DNA from: a virus
Strand: one strand, 5' to 3'
IMG/VR virus record: IMGVR_UViG_3300021964_007165
Span: 15,898 to 79,897 of that record
Length of the DNA stretch: 64,000 nt
Shown one piece after another: positions 7,834 to 33,936 of this stretch (the first letter of the stretch is position 1; the number at the start of each line of letters is the position of its first letter). Under the pieces are notes generated by a model, which saw only the letters and a list, made by a program, of their open reading frames with translations, had not been told where the DNA came from and ran no database searches. The position numbers were made by a program, and so were the translations under genes.

Positions 7834-8372
7834 TTCTTAACTCCGAAATGTTTAAAAGTTGATTGTACACATTTTGCCTGATAGTAACAATCTGCTAATG
7901 CATTGTGTAGACTTTCTTGTATTGCTTTACGAGGATCTATAGGCATCATACTAAACAAAGTTCTACTATCTCTAATCTGCCAAAAGTTCCAAGGACAAGG
8001 TTTACCAATATTTTTATATAAATTTTGTAATATCGCATAATCAAACAGCGGACCTTGACACCATAGTTGATCAACACCTACACAAAATTTGTTGATTGCT
8101 TTTGTTAGTGTGTCCATGTTCACACGATCTTCATGATCACCAAATGCTTCGTCTTGTATTTTTTGATCTTGTTTTGTCCACCAAGCAAGGGTATTGTCAT
8201 CAATACTTCTACCATATTTTTCACTTTGTTCTTCTATATCGCAACGCATATACAATCCAGAATGTGGTTCAGAATCGGAATAAGGATCAAACTTTATAGC
8301 ACCAAGTGTAATAATTACACTGTCTGGTTCAACACCAAGTGTCTCTAAGTCAATCATTCCGTGTACTGCCAT
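7830..8372 (-). CDS. DEDDh 3'-5' exonuclease (DexA/Rv2179c-like)
   Basis: MIDLETLG, FDYAIL, RDSRT, HNALAD motifs. Confidence 0.85.
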   Translation of the reverse strand: MAVHGMIDLETLGVEPDSVIITLGAIKFDPYSDSEPHSGLYMRCDIEEQSEKYGRSIDDNTLAWWTKQDQKIQDEAFGDHEDRVNMDTLTKAINKFCVGVDQLWCQGPLFDYAILQNLYKNIGKPCPWNFWQIRDSRTLFSMMPIDPRKAIQESLHNALADCYYQAKCVQSTFKHFGVKK

Positions 8373-11047
8373 TATTCGTCACCTCCGAAATCAAACAAAT
8401 TATTAAAAGTATTTTTAGTTTTTGTACTTTCTAAATCATAATTAAGAACACCAATCAAGTTATCAAGTTTGTTGTCGATAATCGTTCCCTCCATAGCATC
8501 TCCATCAAATGGTAACTCCTTAAACCATTGTGGTAAATGCATTTCGTCTACAGGATATGCTACACTGGTGTAACCCATTGGATTCTGTTTTAGTTTACAA
8601 ACAATAACTTTCATACCGTCTACAATCTCTTGCGAGTACTTGTCACCGTTCATACGCTTGAGTGTGTTCCAATTAATACTTGCTCTTACATGCCCTGGCA
8701 TGTTTGCTTTACCTTGCTTCTTTTCAAGTCGTTCATAATGTCCAATTTTATTTGCACGTTTAGGTGAACCTTTTTCATGTCCGGGACGTGATTTAAACTC
8801 TGTACGGAATTCTGTAATACGATTTAAGATACTTTCTTCGCTTTCGAACTGCAATACTTTAAGTAGTAATTCACTTAAAAACTCTTGCATAAACACAGGA
8901 GTATCACTACGCTTTAGATCAAGACCCATGGCTTTTACTTTACCTGGCTTGCCGTCAACGTCTGTACGTTCGCCTTCGTTATCATAAATTAAAGCCGCAT
9001 ACCGCTTCTTAGTAATAAACAATCCTGATTCTGCAACAATCTCACGGCCTGCCGCAATAACATCTGTACGACTCTTTGGACAATGAAATGCATCAAGCAT
9101 AAATTTAGGAAATGACTTGTTTGCTTCTGTACATACTTGGTCATACAGTGCAATCACATTGTCTTTACTCCACGGAATATTACCTGCATCAATATCTTTC
9201 TTTAATATCGGATATGCACTAAAATAGCAAGAGTCAGTGTCACCATATATTATTGCTTTACCTACATGATTGTATTCACCTGTAACAACTTTGTTTACTT
9301 CTGCACTCATGTGTTTTACGATCTGTCTACCTGTAAGTGTAGTTGATTGACCAATTCGACCATCAAAGAATCTACAACCTGGATTAAGAATAGCACCATA
9401 CAAACTGTTCAAATTAATTTTTTTAACAAGTTGACGTTTATCCCAAAACTCAATTTCCGCTTTATTTCCTGCATCAATGGCTTTCTTTTTCATTGCCTGC
9501 ATATCCTTACGTTCGCTGTACCAACGTTTAAGTAGTCCAGGGATAACTCCCTCAAACTCGTATGTAAAGATAGTTCCATTAGCACTCATCATCCAAGGAT
9601 TGTTACTATCATAGATAATTTTATACACTTGAGCACCACTCATTACATCGCTTTGTCCGTTCTCCCAATCTACAGTTATGCTTACATCTCTACGTTGTTC
9701 CATAACAGCATCATACTCCATAGTACCAAATCGGCCTTCCCATGCCGCCGCAAATGATTTCTTTTTCAAGTTCATTTGTTCGCCTACATATTTGTTTGTA
9801 AGTTCAGGACGTAGTTGACCTATCACAGTTTCCGGAGCCATGTTTAATGCTCTAATAACAGAAGGATACAGTGAATTTAAGTCCATTGAACCAATCCAAC
9901 TGTGTACACCTACTTTTGGAAATGCAACATATGCTCCAGCCGCTGGATCACTACCAGGTTCACGTTGTACTCTATTAGGCACTTGCATACCTCTATGATG
10001 TGCTTCGTTGATAATTGCTTGTTCTGTAACTGCAACAGCACCCATTGTGGTCTGTAGCAAAACAGTATTTGCGTGTGCAAGTTCATTACTAAGATCGATA
10101 AATCTTAGTTTTTTGTCCAGTTTGTCCAGTAGAGCAACGTCTTGTCGGTTGTACTCAATGAACGTTCTGAAGTCATTGTTATAAAGTTGATCGAGCGTAC
10201 CTTCGTACACAGTTTTTCTTTCACCAACTTCCATTTCACCAATGGCATCAAGTCTGTAAGTATGTCTTTCTTCATATGTGTATTTACGATATAATTCCAA
10301 ACTATCTAAATGCACTCTGCCTATTAGGTCATAGGTTTCTTGTTGCCTTCCAAATTTTTCATACTCACGCTTCTTAGGAAACTGATCAAACAAACAAAAA
10401 CGTCTGGTATCATCCTTGCTTAATACTTTTGCTACACGGTTAACAGTATAAGGAATATCATAACCTTCACTGTTCCAACCAGTAATAATATCACTATCTT
10501 GGATTAGATCTAAAAATGTTTTAAGCATATCTGCTTCATCACTAAACAGATGGGTATTTGGAAAATCTTTACATTGTTCTTCTGCTTGTTCCATTGTCAA
10601 TCCCTTAGGCGGAACAGCAAGTGTTACAAGAGTATCTAACCATTGCAAATGAACTGAAATAGCAGTAATAGGCATAAACGGATCACTTGGATCAGCAAAG
10701 CCACGTTCTGGATCAAAATCTGTTTCAATGTCAAAAAATGCAACGTTCAACTTAGGAGCATCGTGATTAAGATAATTTTCACTTAAACACTGGAAGATTG
10801 GATTTACATCACTTTCGAATAATTCTTTATTCTTGTTAATTGCAAGTTCTTTGCGAAAGTCTTTTGTATTTTTACATACAATTCTATTTAGAGGATCTCC
10901 ATAGATACTTTTATATTTTCCTCTTGGGTCAGCATAATAAAAAGTATATTTTACAGGATATTCGGTAAAGTGTCTTTTACCGTCTTTACGTTCTACAACG
11001 CGAATAATATCAGCATTGCGATCAAAGTGTGCGTCTACATAACTCAT
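8372..11047 (-). CDS. Family B DNA polymerase (gp43-like)
   Basis: DIET ExoI, DLNSLYPS, KINLNSLYG, YGDTDS, KKRYA; no intein seen. Confidence 0.97.
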   Translation of the reverse strand: MSYVDAHFDRNADIIRVVERKDGKRHFTEYPVKYTFYYADPRGKYKSIYGDPLNRIVCKNTKDFRKELAINKNKELFESDVNPIFQCLSENYLNHDAPKLNVAFFDIETDFDPERGFADPSDPFMPITAISVHLQWLDTLVTLAVPPKGLTMEQAEEQCKDFPNTHLFSDEADMLKTFLDLIQDSDIITGWNSEGYDIPYTVNRVAKVLSKDDTRRFCLFDQFPKKREYEKFGRQQETYDLIGRVHLDSLELYRKYTYEERHTYRLDAIGEMEVGERKTVYEGTLDQLYNNDFRTFIEYNRQDVALLDKLDKKLRFIDLSNELAHANTVLLQTTMGAVAVTEQAIINEAHHRGMQVPNRVQREPGSDPAAGAYVAFPKVGVHSWIGSMDLNSLYPSVIRALNMAPETVIGQLRPELTNKYVGEQMNLKKKSFAAAWEGRFGTMEYDAVMEQRRDVSITVDWENGQSDVMSGAQVYKIIYDSNNPWMMSANGTIFTYEFEGVIPGLLKRWYSERKDMQAMKKKAIDAGNKAEIEFWDKRQLVKKINLNSLYGAILNPGCRFFDGRIGQSTTLTGRQIVKHMSAEVNKVVTGEYNHVGKAIIYGDTDSCYFSAYPILKKDIDAGNIPWSKDNVIALYDQVCTEANKSFPKFMLDAFHCPKSRTDVIAAGREIVAESGLFITKKRYAALIYDNEGERTDVDGKPGKVKAMGLDLKRSDTPVFMQEFLSELLLKVLQFESEESILNRITEFRTEFKSRPGHEKGSPKRANKIGHYERLEKKQGKANMPGHVRASINWNTLKRMNGDKYSQEIVDGMKVIVCKLKQNPMGYTSVAYPVDEMHLPQWFKELPFDGDAMEGTIIDNKLDNLIGVLNYDLESTKTKNTFNNLFDFGGDE

Positions 11048-11058
11048 TTTTTCTCCTA

Positions 11059-11113
11059 TACCATTTTAGGCTGGCAAATACCCAAGTTATTCGTTTATTG
11101 GCCGAAAATACCA
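11059..11113 (-). promoter_or_regulatory. Two tandem compact H-type RNA pseudoknots abutting the polB Shine-Dalgarno
   Basis: UGGU-AUU-UUCG-GCCA-AUAAA-CGAA and GGGU-AUU-UGCCA-GCCU-AAAA-UGGUA; stem 2 differs in sequence but pairs in both copies. Confidence 0.6.
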
Positions 11114-11361
11114 TCTTGTACAAGTCCAGCAATATATATTATTGTAAGTCCTGCGTTTAAAATAATCAACGATTTTTCTTTCCAAAGCACTCCTACTGCT
11201 ACCCAAATACCATTAGCAATAGTAAAAGCATAACTGTAGTAAGGATACATATTAAATGCGGCCATTGTAGCGGCAATCAATAATACCGTTGTTCCTGTCC
11301 AAGCCAACCATTGGTATGGCTTAGGTTGCGTCTTTAATGTTTTTAAAGTATTGTTTGTCAT
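11095..11361 (-). CDS. Small 3-TM membrane protein
   Basis: Three hydrophobic helices; W...G.LWKE.SL pattern. Confidence 0.6.
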   Translation of the reverse strand: MTNNTLKTLKTQPKPYQWLAWTGTTVLLIAATMAAFNMYPYYSYAFTIANGIWVAVGVLWKEKSLIILNAGLTIIYIAGLVQDGIFGQ

Positions 11362-11632
11362 TTTGTGCCTTATCGTCTATCCAAATGTCGTAATGTGGTT
11401 TGTGAAATAAAATAGAACTGTATTTTACTTCCCATTCCTCTAATTGCCTTTGTGTGAATTGTTTCCAATCCAAATGTGATTTTGCGCCTCTTGCTGTCCA
11501 ATAATTAATTTCATGGCCTTCGTCATACAATTGATTAAAGTGTTCAATTCTTTCTTTAATAGGCTTACTATTTTCATAATCACTGTTAGTAGTATAGCAT
11601 ATTGTATTATCAATGTCAACCATATAAATCAT
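11321..11632 (-). CDS. Minimal HAD-superfamily phosphatase
   Basis: VDIDNTI, WTARG, KP, IDDK motifs I-IV. Confidence 0.85.
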   Translation of the reverse strand: MIYMVDIDNTICYTTNSDYENSKPIKERIEHFNQLYDEGHEINYWTARGAKSHLDWKQFTQRQLEEWEVKYSSILFHKPHYDIWIDDKAQNDKQYFKNIKDAT

Positions 11633-13075: not shown

Positions 13076-13104
13076 ATTATATATTCGCTTAAGGTAGAAG
13101 TCAA
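13076..13104 (-). promoter_or_regulatory. sigma70-type promoter heading the rubrerythrin-to-polB run
   Basis: TTGACT-N17-TATAAT. Confidence 0.75.
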
Positions 13105-33027: not shown

Positions 33028-33936
33028 TTATAAACGTGCTAAACGAATCATGGTTGCCGCTAAATTAATCTCTGGATCTGCAACAAGTGTGTGGTCTACA
33101 AGACCTTGCTTGATTATTAAGATAGCATCATCTTCTTTTTCTCCAAACAGTGTTACATTATCATACAACCATTTAAAAATATCTTCTACTTCGTCAGGAC
33201 GTACTTGGCTACAAACAAGTTTTCTCGCTTGATTAATTTTACCTGCTTTGAATAGTTCTACCATTTCAAGTTTATAGTCTGCTTCACCTGTATCACCTTC
33301 TTGTGGTTTTTGTAAAGCACCATCTACACTGTTCATTTGTACCATATTGATACACTTACGCAAGTCAGGATATGTTGCTTTTACAAAAGTATCAAGTGTG
33401 TCTAAGTCTGGAGTTACGCCTTCATCGATACAAATTTTTGCAACACGGGCAGTAAATTCTGTTTGATCAATACGTTCAATGTGAAATCCTTGACATCTTG
33501 AATGCAGTGCTGGAATAATTCTGTTAGGGTAGTTACAGGTTAAAATAAATCTGCTTGTGGTATGGTATTCTTCCATCACGCCACGCAGTGCCGCTTGAGC
33601 ATTTGGACTCAAGTAATCAGCCTCATCAAGCAGTACAACTTTAAATTCACCAAATGGAATCATCTGTACAAAATTGATAATCTTATCTCTTACATCATCA
33701 ACTGAGTTTGTACGGCTTGCATTGATTTCTAAAATATCTAAATCATTAATTTCTAATTCATTAAACAAGATTTTAGCAAGTGTTGTCTTACCAATACCTG
33801 CATTACCTGAAAACAACAAATGCGGGATAGTGCGTTCTTTAATCCACTGTTGTACTTGTTTCTTTTGATGTTCATCTCTGAACACATAACCGTCTATTGT
33901 TTTAGGACGATACTTTTCTACCCAAAGTTCTTTCAT
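33028..33936 (-). CDS. Clamp loader ATPase (gp44/RFC small subunit-like)
   Basis: [22 protein letters not shown] motif. Confidence 0.95.

What the first reader, a model, noticed from the sequence alone, without database searches (positions are those of the whole stretch)
11053..11113. Tandem covarying mini-pseudoknots directly before the DNA polymerase ribosome-binding site
Seen (minus strand): copy 1 UGGU-AUU-UUCG-GCCA-AUAAA-CGAA (11113-11090); copy 2 GGGU-AUU-UGCCA-GCCU-AAAA-UGGUA (11083-11059), then U-AGGAG and the polB AUG. Both keep GGUAUUU, GCC and an A-rich L3, while stem 2 changes sequence yet stays paired (UUCG/CGAA versus UGCCA/UGGUA), which is internal covariation. Established: T4 gp43 represses its own translation through an operator hairpin and T4 gene 32 uses a pseudoknot. 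Inference: an undescribed operator for polymerase autoregulation, or a tandem small-ligand sensor.
Basis: partly seen in the sequence, partly recalled or inferred. Interest (0 to 1): 0.8.

Follow-up and report, generated by a model that had tools for sequence, protein, structure and literature searches.

The report
Twin pseudoknot leader of phage polymerase
The short RNA stretch in front of this uncultured giant marine phage's DNA polymerase gene folds into two tiny pseudoknots pressed against the ribosome-binding site; related phages keep them through compensating base changes, no RNA catalogue lists them, and they most likely limit how much polymerase is made, as phage T4 does with a simpler hairpin.

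Summary
Two H-type mini-pseudoknots lie on the minus strand at 11113-11090 and 11083-11059. They are followed by U, the Shine-Dalgarno AGGAG (11057-11053) and the AUG of an 891-aa family-B (gp43-type) DNA polymerase.

In this one sequence the pattern is not above chance. In 160 related viral contigs it is strongly supported:
- about 20 stem-2 sequences all stay paired;
- the first pair of stem 1 swaps G-C for A-U in several lineages, with no violation;
- the element abuts or overlaps the SD in 86 of 88 distinct leaders;
- it occurs once per genome, always at the head of the polB message.

Rfam holds nothing like it, and cultured relatives lack it.

Copy 1 overlaps the last codons and the stop of an upstream DUF6552 gene. 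Only three stem-1 pairs are conserved. The tandem form is lineage-specific, because most relatives carry a plain covarying hairpin in place of copy 1.

Best reading: a translational operator, probably bound by the polymerase itself. The effector is untested. A riboswitch is less likely because loop 1 varies freely.

This scan reported the same element family earlier on at least eight other genomes, and I reached the same view independently.

The parts
11090..11113 (-). Distal pseudoknot (unit 1). S1a UGGU 11113-11110, L1 AUU 11109-11107, S2a UUCG 11106-11103, S1b GCCA 11102-11099, L3 AUAAA 11098-11094, S2b CGAA 11093-11090.
   Evidence: Sequence read. In the unbiased alignment A1 the first S1 pair is G-C in 11 rows and A-U in 8, with none broken. 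S2 changes as UUCG/CGAA, CUUG/CAAG, GUCG/CGAC, AACG/CGUU and GCGG/CCGC. R2 scores it 21.7 bits.
11095..11097 (-). TAA stop codon of the upstream DUF6552 ORF, lying inside loop 3 of unit 1.
   Evidence: In relatives the stop (TAA or TAG) also falls in S1b or L3.
11084..11089 (-). Six-base linker UAACUU between the two units.
   Evidence: It varies in length and sequence in relatives.
11059..11083 (-). Proximal pseudoknot (unit 2). S1a (G)GGU 11083-11080, L1 AUU 11079-11077, S2a UGCCA 11076-11072, S1b GCC(U) 11071-11068, L3 AAAA 11067-11064, S2b UGGUA 11063-11059.
   Evidence: S2 is paired in 100% of 19 clade A rows, with 6, 2 and 1 double changes. About 20 S2 types occur across 88 distinct leaders. 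S1 combinations are GGC/GCC 50, GGU/GCC 37 and AGU/GCU 1, with no violation, plus AGU/GCU in L059 and L119. R1 scores it 42.7 bits.
11053..11057 (-). Shine-Dalgarno AGGAG, one base after S2b of unit 2.
   Evidence: The SD core starts -4 to +5 nt from the end of S2b in 86 of 88 distinct leaders and overlaps it in 44.
11045..11047 (-). AUG start codon of polB.
8372..11047 (-). polB, an 891-aa family-B (T4 gp43-type) DNA polymerase. This is the regulated gene.
   Evidence: Pfam PF00136 (3e-32) and PF03104 (1.3e-21). The nearest cultured relatives are Sinorhizobium phage Phosso (50%), Atu_ph07 (47%) and RaK2-like jumbo phages (about 43%).
11095..11361 (-). Upstream 88-aa ORF (DUF6552, small membrane protein). 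Its last six codons and stop overlap unit 1.
   Evidence: Pfam PF20189, 3.4e-11. Relatives L019-L024, L038 and L039 keep unit 1 without this overlap.

Best explanation
The leader of the polB message carries a cis-acting translational operator built from compact H-type pseudoknots.

Anatomy of each unit:
- A three-pair G+C stem 1: RGY pairs with GCY at the 5' end of the loop of the next hairpin.
- A free loop 1 of 1-4 nt.
- A variable stem 2 of 3-6 pairs, with no loop 2.
- An A-rich loop 3 (NNAAR) that can lie in the minor groove of stem 1.

The proximal unit ends at, or two bases inside, the Shine-Dalgarno sequence. Each helix alone is weak. I therefore infer that the fold is fully formed, and blocks 30S binding, only when a partner holds it. 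The most likely partner is free DNA polymerase that is not engaged on DNA, as in T4, RB69 and RB49 gene 43. That would tie polymerase synthesis to replication demand.

In this window's lineage the distal unit overlaps the end of the upstream DUF6552 gene. Ribosomes finishing that gene would melt unit 1 and probably reach the start of unit 2. This would give transient coupling.

Shown here: the structure, its conservation, its position and its single-copy link to polB. Inferred: that it represses, and that polB is the effector.
For: Structure:
- Unbiased MAFFT alignment of 19 clade A leaders: 88.5% of cells paired against 14-45% when partners are slid, and 0 of 500 shuffles reach the covariation score.
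- RNAalifold on its own picks stem 1 of unit 1 and stem 2 of unit 2.
- 67 distinct clade C leaders: the inner three stem-2 pairs are 98.5-100% paired with 12-21 double changes each, and stem 1 is 100% paired.
- Stem 1 swaps G-C for A-U in unit 1 (8 of 19 rows) and in unit 2 of L059, L119 and L154. There is no mismatched combination among 88 leaders.
- In unit 1, a coding change in DUF6552 (F to L, UUCG to CUUG) is matched by a change after the stop codon (CGAA to CAAG).

Position:
- The SD core starts -4 to +5 nt from the end of stem 2 in 86 of 88 leaders and overlaps it in 44.
- UUG start codons occur in 26 of 88.

Specificity:
- 147 of 180 strict hits in 1.06 Mb of related DNA lie in polB leaders. 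The other 33 are at the shuffle level of 43.
- In a complete 337-kb relative the polB leader scores 33.2 bits and the next hit, in coding DNA, 17.1 bits.
- In four of five large records searched with R2 the top hit is the polB leader.
- When an extra ORF (HNH endonuclease, or ORFs of 15, 50 or about 100 aa) is inserted, the leader stays at the head of the polB operon.

Weak helices: each helix alone has -1.5 to -8 kcal/mol.

Precedent:
- T4 gp43 represses its own translation through an 18-nt hairpin next to the SD. AA or AC bases in the 3' part of that loop matter (PMC3014915; T4 leader read).
- This polB belongs to the same polymerase family.
- Small RNA pseudoknots bind the template-primer cleft of HIV-1 RT (PMC2588506).
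Against: - No binding or expression data exist. The RNA runs gave no usable cover of the leader.
- The review states that some T4-related polymerases do not autoregulate and that the T4 operator is not a pseudoknot.
- The models built here do not recognise the T4 leader: 7.2 bits over a partial match.
- In clade A the SD itself is left free, 1-5 nt beyond stem 2, so occlusion would have to be steric.
- About 33 of 161 related polB loci have no such unit, and the cultured relatives have none. The control is therefore dispensable.
Confidence: 0.5

Rival explanations
1. The same operator is bound by another protein: a phage translational repressor, a single-strand-binding protein, or a host protein such as ribosomal protein S1. 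The polymerase is not the partner.
For: The structure, position and conservation are as above. T4 also uses RegA and gp32 as translational repressors. The two-module leader (hairpin or pseudoknot plus pseudoknot) resembles two-site operators such as that of ribosomal protein L20 (abstract of PMC1888825).
Against: The element is single-copy and tied to polB, whereas a general repressor would be expected to have several targets. No RegA family member (PF01818) was found in the window's contig or in four related records, one of them complete. That negative is weak because the control genomes were silent.
Confidence: 0.15
2. An effector-free structural element. The pseudoknots would protect the 5' end or an intercistronic junction from RNases, mark a processing site, or hold the SD region in a defined, standby-friendly shape. 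No factor would switch them.
For: - The conserved letters are those that build the fold: the stem-1 G-C pairs, the loop-3 adenines and the purine at the helix junction.
- In several relatives a sigma-70-like promoter, TTGACT-N17-TATAAT, lies just upstream, so the element sits at the very 5' end of the transcript.
- The distal module is interchangeable between a hairpin and a pseudoknot.
Against: In 44 of 88 leaders stem 2 uses the first bases of the SD. That would lower initiation rather than help it. The element is found on polB only and not on other early genes of the same genomes. UUG starts in 30% of leaders fit a throttled gene.
Confidence: 0.2
3. A riboswitch. Each mini-pseudoknot would be an aptamer for a small molecule such as a nucleotide or dNTP. 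Ligand binding would close the fold over the SD, as in preQ1-I.
For: The topology is the same as preQ1-I: an H-type pseudoknot, an A-rich loop 3, and a 3' stem that reaches the SD (own knowledge). The helices are marginally stable alone. The tandem arrangement in clade A recalls tandem aptamers.
Against: - Loop 1 varies in length (1-4 nt) and in sequence, and there is no loop 2, so few conserved unpaired bases remain to form a pocket.
- The distal unit is replaced by a plain hairpin in most relatives.
- The element is never seen before any gene other than polB or an ORF inserted in front of it.
- No Rfam family, preQ1-I included, matches even at E up to 10.
Confidence: 0.1
4. A chance pattern, or a DNA-level signal such as a promoter or protein-binding repeat, with no RNA structure.
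For: In the single window sequence the pattern is not above chance and the MFE z-score is 0.2. GGTATTT occurs 12 times in the window, as expected by chance.
Against: There are compensatory changes in both stems across 160 contigs. The loop variants GCAAAT and ACAAGC do not fit a -10 hexamer.
Confidence: 0.02

Closest known systems
Translational operator of gene 43 (DNA polymerase) of T4, RB69 and RB49
   Same: It lies in the leader of a gp43-family polymerase gene as a small hairpin just 5' of the SD. T4 has a 5-bp stem and an 8-nt loop (AGCCU-AAUAACUC-GGGCU). Stem 2 here is UGCCA/UGGUA, also with an 8-nt loop. Adenines in the 3' part of the loop are conserved here, and the review says AA/AC loop bases matter there.
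   Different: Here the first three loop bases pair with an upstream GGY to make a pseudoknot, whereas the review says there is no evidence of one in T4. There is no sequence similarity: R2 gives 7.2 bits on the T4 leader. A second module lies upstream. Binding by the polymerase is untested.
T4/T2/RB69 gene 32 leader pseudoknot
   Same: A phage replication gene whose leader carries an H-type pseudoknot used in autogenous translational control.
   Different: The gene 32 pseudoknot is larger and lies tens of bases from the SD. It nucleates cooperative coating of unstructured RNA (own knowledge). Here the knot abuts the SD and the gene is the polymerase.
preQ1-I riboswitch (Rfam RF00522)
   Same: A very small H-type pseudoknot with an A-rich loop 3 lying along stem 1. 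Its 3' stem can include the first bases of the SD (own knowledge).
   Different: Stem lengths are reversed: here the 5' stem has 3 bp and the 3' stem 3-6 bp. There is no loop 2 and no conserved loop-1 or loop-2 bases. Rfam gives no match at E up to 10. The element is found only before polB.
Compact luteovirus-type frameshifting pseudoknots (e.g. BWYV)
   Same: Fold class: a G+C stem 1, a short loop 1, a 3-bp CCG/CGG-like stem 2 and an adenine-rich loop 3 forming minor-groove triples. This is own knowledge and was not tested here.
   Different: Those lie inside coding sequence, downstream of a slippery site. This one lies upstream of a start codon, with no slippery site and often no upstream ORF.
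In-vitro selected pseudoknot aptamers of HIV-1 reverse transcriptase
   Same: They show that a nucleic-acid polymerase can bind a pseudoknot of about 30 nt tightly in its template-primer cleft (PMC2588506).
   Different: They are artificial, the polymerase family is unrelated, and the sequences are different.

Membership tests
T4-type gene 43 translational operator | Lies in the 5' leader of a gp43-family DNA polymerase gene, with a hairpin directly 5' of the SD | tested here: met
   The T4 leader was read.
T4-type gene 43 translational operator | Simple hairpin (16-18 nt) without a pseudoknot, with a UAAC/UAAA loop core | tested here: not met
   The loop bases GCC pair with an upstream GGY, with compensatory A-U swaps. 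The loop is GCC+NNAAR. R2 does not match the T4 leader.
T4-type gene 43 translational operator | Bound by its own polymerase, which represses translation | not testable with these tools
   Needs binding, toeprint or reporter assays.
preQ1-I riboswitch | Match to the Rfam covariance model RF00522 | tested here: not met
   No match at the gathering score nor at E up to 10 on 301 bases.
preQ1-I riboswitch | Conserved loop bases that form the ligand pocket, and association with queuosine genes | tested here: not met
   Loop 1 is free in length and sequence and loop 2 is absent. The downstream gene is always polB or an ORF inserted before it.
H-type RNA pseudoknot (fold class) | Two stems in which loop bases of hairpin 1 pair outside it, both supported by covariation | tested here: met
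H-type RNA pseudoknot (fold class) | Loop 3 adenines docked in the minor groove of stem 1 | not testable with these tools
   Only the conservation of AA in loop 3 is seen. Confirmation needs probing or a solved structure.
Programmed frameshift or readthrough pseudoknot | Slippery site or leaky stop 5-9 nt upstream, inside an ORF continued in another frame | tested here: not met
   Many relatives have a promoter-like site and no ORF upstream. In the window the stop lies 11 nt before unit 2 and no extended frame follows.

The most novel reading that the evidence does not exclude
The mini-pseudoknot is a new riboswitch class. It would be among the smallest aptamers known. It would sense a nucleotide-pool metabolite and set DNA polymerase synthesis in giant marine and freshwater phages. 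The tandem copies in this lineage would give a steeper response.
Probability: 0.1. Interest if true: 0.9.

Novelty: new variant of a known kind. Interest (0 to 1): 0.65.

Why it matters
Autogenous control of a replicative DNA polymerase is known experimentally only from T4-type phages, where the RNA is a plain hairpin.

Here a distant branch of the same polymerase family, from uncultured giant phages with estimated genomes of about 340-350 kb, has a different and far better constrained RNA. It is a 21-26-nt pseudoknot with about 80 natural sequence variants.

That offers three things:
- A ready-made natural mutational map for testing how a family-B polymerase, or another effector, recognises RNA.
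- A compact regulatory part.
- A new family for RNA catalogues, which would also mark polB starts in viral metagenomes.

Tried and rejected
- **Rfam.** At gathering thresholds on the whole window, and at E up to 10 on 301 bases, only noise appeared.
- **Nested MFE fold.** Not different from shuffles. This is expected for a pseudoknot.
- **Motif words in the window.** GGTATTT and the 15-mer occur at chance level, with no second copy.
- **Pattern scan of the 79.9-kb contig.** No other unit with an A-rich loop 3.
- **Model R1 (clade A unit 2).** Too specific: unit 1 scores only 14.6 bits.
- **MAFFT of isolated units (A2).** Not in structural register, so not used for counts.
- **Alignments A5 and A8.** They were assembled from sequences picked by a pairing-dependent scanner. 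Their percentage paired is therefore not independent evidence. The unbiased counts are A1 and A7.
- **R2 hit at window 33196-33219(+).** A hairpin with loop GCUACAAA but no stem-1 partner, antisense to an ORF. Taken as chance.
- **Other R2 and R3 hits in large records.** They lack stem 1 or an SD, or lie in coding DNA.
- **Cultured relatives.** Phosso, Atu_ph07, RaK2, PA5oct and Vibrio phage 2.275.O carry no unit.
- **Extending stem 1 to 4-5 pairs in clade C (AUGGC/GCCAU).** No compensation, because the partner A is invariant.
- **RegA family search.** Negative, but the controls were silent.
- **Sequencing runs.** Only assembled contigs were available. No RNA contig covers the leader. One contig of a relative joins 11057 to 11361, with unknown letters between. 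No conclusion on transcription is possible.
- **Literature.** PMC137073 (Petrov and Karam 2002) is not held. One paper search failed on syntax. A search for 'jumbo phage' plus 'pseudoknot' found nothing relevant.

Full report
**What is in the window**

- Unit 1 is UGGU-AUU-UUCG-GCCA-AUAAA-CGAA at 11113-11090.
- A six-base linker follows.
- Unit 2 is GGGU-AUU-UGCCA-GCCU-AAAA-UGGUA at 11083-11059.
- Then come U, AGGAG (11057-11053), five A and AUG (11047-11045).

The AUG opens an 891-aa ORF (8372-11047) that matches Pfam DNA_pol_B and its exonuclease domain. Its nearest cultured relatives are the polymerases of the jumbo phages Phosso (50%), Atu_ph07 (47%) and the RaK2 group (about 43%, annotated gp43-like). 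The window is part of a 79.9-kb viral contig that CheckV rates 23% complete, which suggests a genome near 350 kb.

The upstream 88-aa ORF 11095-11361 (DUF6552) ends with a TAA at 11097-11095, so most of unit 1 is coding sequence and its loop 3 holds the stop codon.

**Is it more than chance in this sequence alone? No**

A loose scan for the same architecture finds 29 places on the two strands of the window, against a mean of 18 (range 8-31) in shuffles. The nested minimum-free-energy fold has z = 0.2. GGTATTT occurs as often as chance predicts. Only these two hits have an adenine-rich loop 3, and no other exists in the 79.9-kb contig. The agreement between the two copies within one sequence is therefore a lead, not evidence.

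**Comparative evidence**

Two scans of viral contigs with polB proteins gave 160 loci at 57-95% identity. I located each polB start with tblastn and read the upstream DNA.

Three leader types appear.
- *Clade A* comprises the window, L001-L025, L038-L040, L043 and L044. It has two tandem units.
- *Clade B* has about 80% polB identity. *Clade C* has about 61-65%, is very diverse, and gave 67 distinct leaders. Both have a covarying plain hairpin, a conserved CAUG-N6-7 linker and one unit next to the SD.

Counts on unbiased MAFFT alignments:
- For the 19 clade A leaders, 88.5% of cells are paired, against 14-45% when partners are slid. No shuffle out of 500 reaches the covariation score.
- RNAalifold independently chose stem 1 of unit 1 and stem 2 of unit 2.
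- For the 67 clade C leaders, the three inner stem-2 pairs are 98.5-100% paired with 12, 20 and 21 double changes. Stem 1 is 100% paired. The distal hairpin shows 28, 13 and 9 double changes.

In all I found 80 distinct unit sequences and about 20 different stem-2 sequences.

**Is it a pseudoknot or only a hairpin with a conserved loop?**

Stem 1 is short and mostly invariant (GGY with GCC), so the test rests on the rare variants.
- In unit 1 the first pair is G-C in 11 rows of the unbiased alignment and A-U in 8, and it is never broken (UGGU/GCCA against UAGU/GCUA and UAGC/GCUA).
- In the proximal unit, L059, L119 and L154 carry AGU with GCU.
- An anchor-free table that required only the stem-2 hairpin gives GGC/GCC 50, GGU/GCC 37 and AGU/GCU 1, with no mismatched combination.
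- In L119 and L154 the distal element is itself a pseudoknot. Its stem 1 reads AGUC/GACU in one and GGUC/GACC in the other.

The pairing is thus supported by compensatory change in at least three lineages. An extension to five pairs in clade C shows no compensation.

Unit 1 gives a further argument. In L002 the DUF6552 codon TTC (F) becomes CTT (L), and the non-coding bases after the stop change from CGAA to CAAG. This keeps stem 2 paired across a coding boundary. Unit 1 also persists in L019-L024, L038 and L039, where it is fully intergenic.

**Anatomy**

A unit is RGY, then loop 1 (1-4 nt, free sequence), then stem 2a (3-6 nt), then GCY directly with no loop 2, then loop 3 (5-6 nt, NNAAR), then stem 2b. 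Loop 1 plus stem 2a always total 6-8 nt. Each helix alone is weak, at -1.5 to -8 kcal/mol.

The conserved letters are those that build the fold. From general knowledge, this is the compact H-type class with an adenine-rich loop 3 in the minor groove of stem 1. I could not test that tertiary contact.

**Position and specificity**

- In 86 of 88 distinct leaders the SD core begins between 4 bases inside and 5 bases beyond the end of stem 2b. In 44 leaders it overlaps, typically with the GG of GGAG serving as the last two bases of stem 2b.
- UUG is the start codon in 26 of 88.
- A strict scan of 1.06 Mb of related DNA gives 147 hits in polB leaders and 33 elsewhere, against 43 in shuffles.
- Covariance models place the polB leader first in four of five large records.
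- In a complete 337-kb genome the polB leader scores 33.2 bits and the next hit, in coding DNA, scores 17.1 bits.
- Where an extra ORF has been inserted (an HNH endonuclease in L105, small ORFs in L059, L119, L066 and L090), the leader stays in front of the new first gene of the polB operon.
- About 33 of 161 loci, and all cultured relatives examined, lack the unit.
- Several relatives have a near-consensus TTGACT-N17-TATAAT just upstream, so there the element begins the transcript. In the window the nearest such sites on the minus strand are at 11619-11591 and 13104-13076. Here the leader is probably intercistronic.

**How it most likely works**

A weak, precisely conserved fold that touches or uses the SD of one gene is the signature of a translational operator that a partner stabilises.

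The closest precedent is gene 43 of T4, RB69 and RB49. There the polymerase binds a 16-18-nt hairpin next to the SD and represses its own translation. Adenines in the 3' part of the loop matter for binding (PMC3014915; T4 leader read). The polymerase here belongs to the same family. In-vitro selection has also shown that a polymerase cleft can hold a small pseudoknot (PMC2588506).

I therefore put polymerase autoregulation at about 0.5. The rest divides as follows.
- Another protein: about 0.15. No RegA homologue was found, but that negative is weak.
- An effector-free stability or standby element: about 0.2. The SD overlap and the restriction to polB argue against it.
- A riboswitch: about 0.1. 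It is disfavoured by the free loop 1, the missing loop 2, the replacement of the distal unit by a plain hairpin, and the single gene context.

In this window's lineage, ribosomes terminating at the DUF6552 stop inside unit 1 should unfold unit 1. By their footprint they should also reach the start of unit 2, 11 bases downstream. This would give transient coupling. That step is inference.

**Comparison with what is known**

The element works like the T4 gene 43 operator in place and probable logic, but it is not a member of that RNA family.
- Its loop is part of a pseudoknot, which the review says is not seen in T4.
- There is no sequence similarity.
- A second module precedes it.

It is not preQ1-I and not a frameshift signal. 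Rfam 15 has no match, and the two successful literature searches found no description.

This scan has reported the same element family on at least eight other genomes, with the same reading. I consulted those notes only after forming my own view, and I tested the shared claims here independently.

**Verdict**

I file it as a new variant of a known kind (a phage polymerase translational operator) carried by an uncatalogued RNA fold family.

Noticed in passing
L045:2929-3003 and 66 other clade C leaders (alignment A7, columns 20-52): In clades B and C the distal pseudoknot is replaced by a plain 4-5-bp hairpin (GCUC/GAGC, GUUC/GAAC, GCCC/GGGC, GUUGC/GCAAC). Its flanks are invariant: UCG before the stem and CAUG-N6-7 after it, up to the GGY of the unit. 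What the conserved flanks do is unexplained.
   Followed up: partly
L119:1286-1340 and L154:1429-1503: The distal element here is itself an H-type pseudoknot with a different stem 1: AGUC/GACU in L119 and GGUC/GACC in L154. Stem 2 is GCCG/CGGC and loop 3 is adenine-rich. Both also have the rare AGU/GCU stem 1 in the proximal unit.
   Followed up: partly
L105:873-1500; also L059:2948-3003, L119:1340-1500, L066 and L090 (about 305-310 nt before polB): Extra ORFs are inserted between the leader and polB. L105 has an HNH homing endonuclease that starts with the polB-like residues (M)SY. L059 has a 15-aa ORF with an ATGA overlap. L119 has a 50-aa Cys-rich ORF. L066 and L090 have ORFs of about 100 aa. 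The leader stays with the new first gene.
   Followed up: partly
window 13076-13104 (-) and 11591-11619 (-); L033, L054, L067 upstream of polB: Near-consensus sigma-70-type promoters (TTGACT-N17-TATAAT, 11 of 12 matches) recur in this phage group. In some relatives they sit directly before the polB leader.
   Followed up: no
L014-L018 and many clade C loci (e.g. L045, L093-L117): UUG is the polB start codon in 26 of 88 distinct leaders that carry the unit.
   Followed up: no
window 33196-33219 (+): A hairpin CUUG/CAAG with loop GCUACAAA resembles stem 2 and the loop of the unit (R2 16.9 bits). It has no stem-1 partner and lies antisense to ORF 33028-33936. It is probably chance.
   Followed up: yes
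window 11058-11360: A contig in a marine metatranscriptome run joins 11057 to 11361. A relative therefore appears to lack these 303 bases, which hold DUF6552 and both units, or to have other letters there. The side of the joint is only 24 bases long.
   Followed up: no
several polB-flanking loci (strict-scan hits such as AGC-GA-TCCGT-GCT-CTTAAC-ATGGG and GGC-CA-TTCGT-GCC-ATGAAC-ATGGG): A recurring unit-like pattern lies outside the leader, and its first and last triplets also change together (AGC/GCT against GGC/GCC). It probably lies in conserved coding sequence. I did not locate or examine it.
   Followed up: no
window 11321-11361 (-): The DUF6552 ORF as listed overlaps the preceding 103-aa ORF (11321-11632) by 41 bases. 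The true start of one of them may differ.
   Followed up: no
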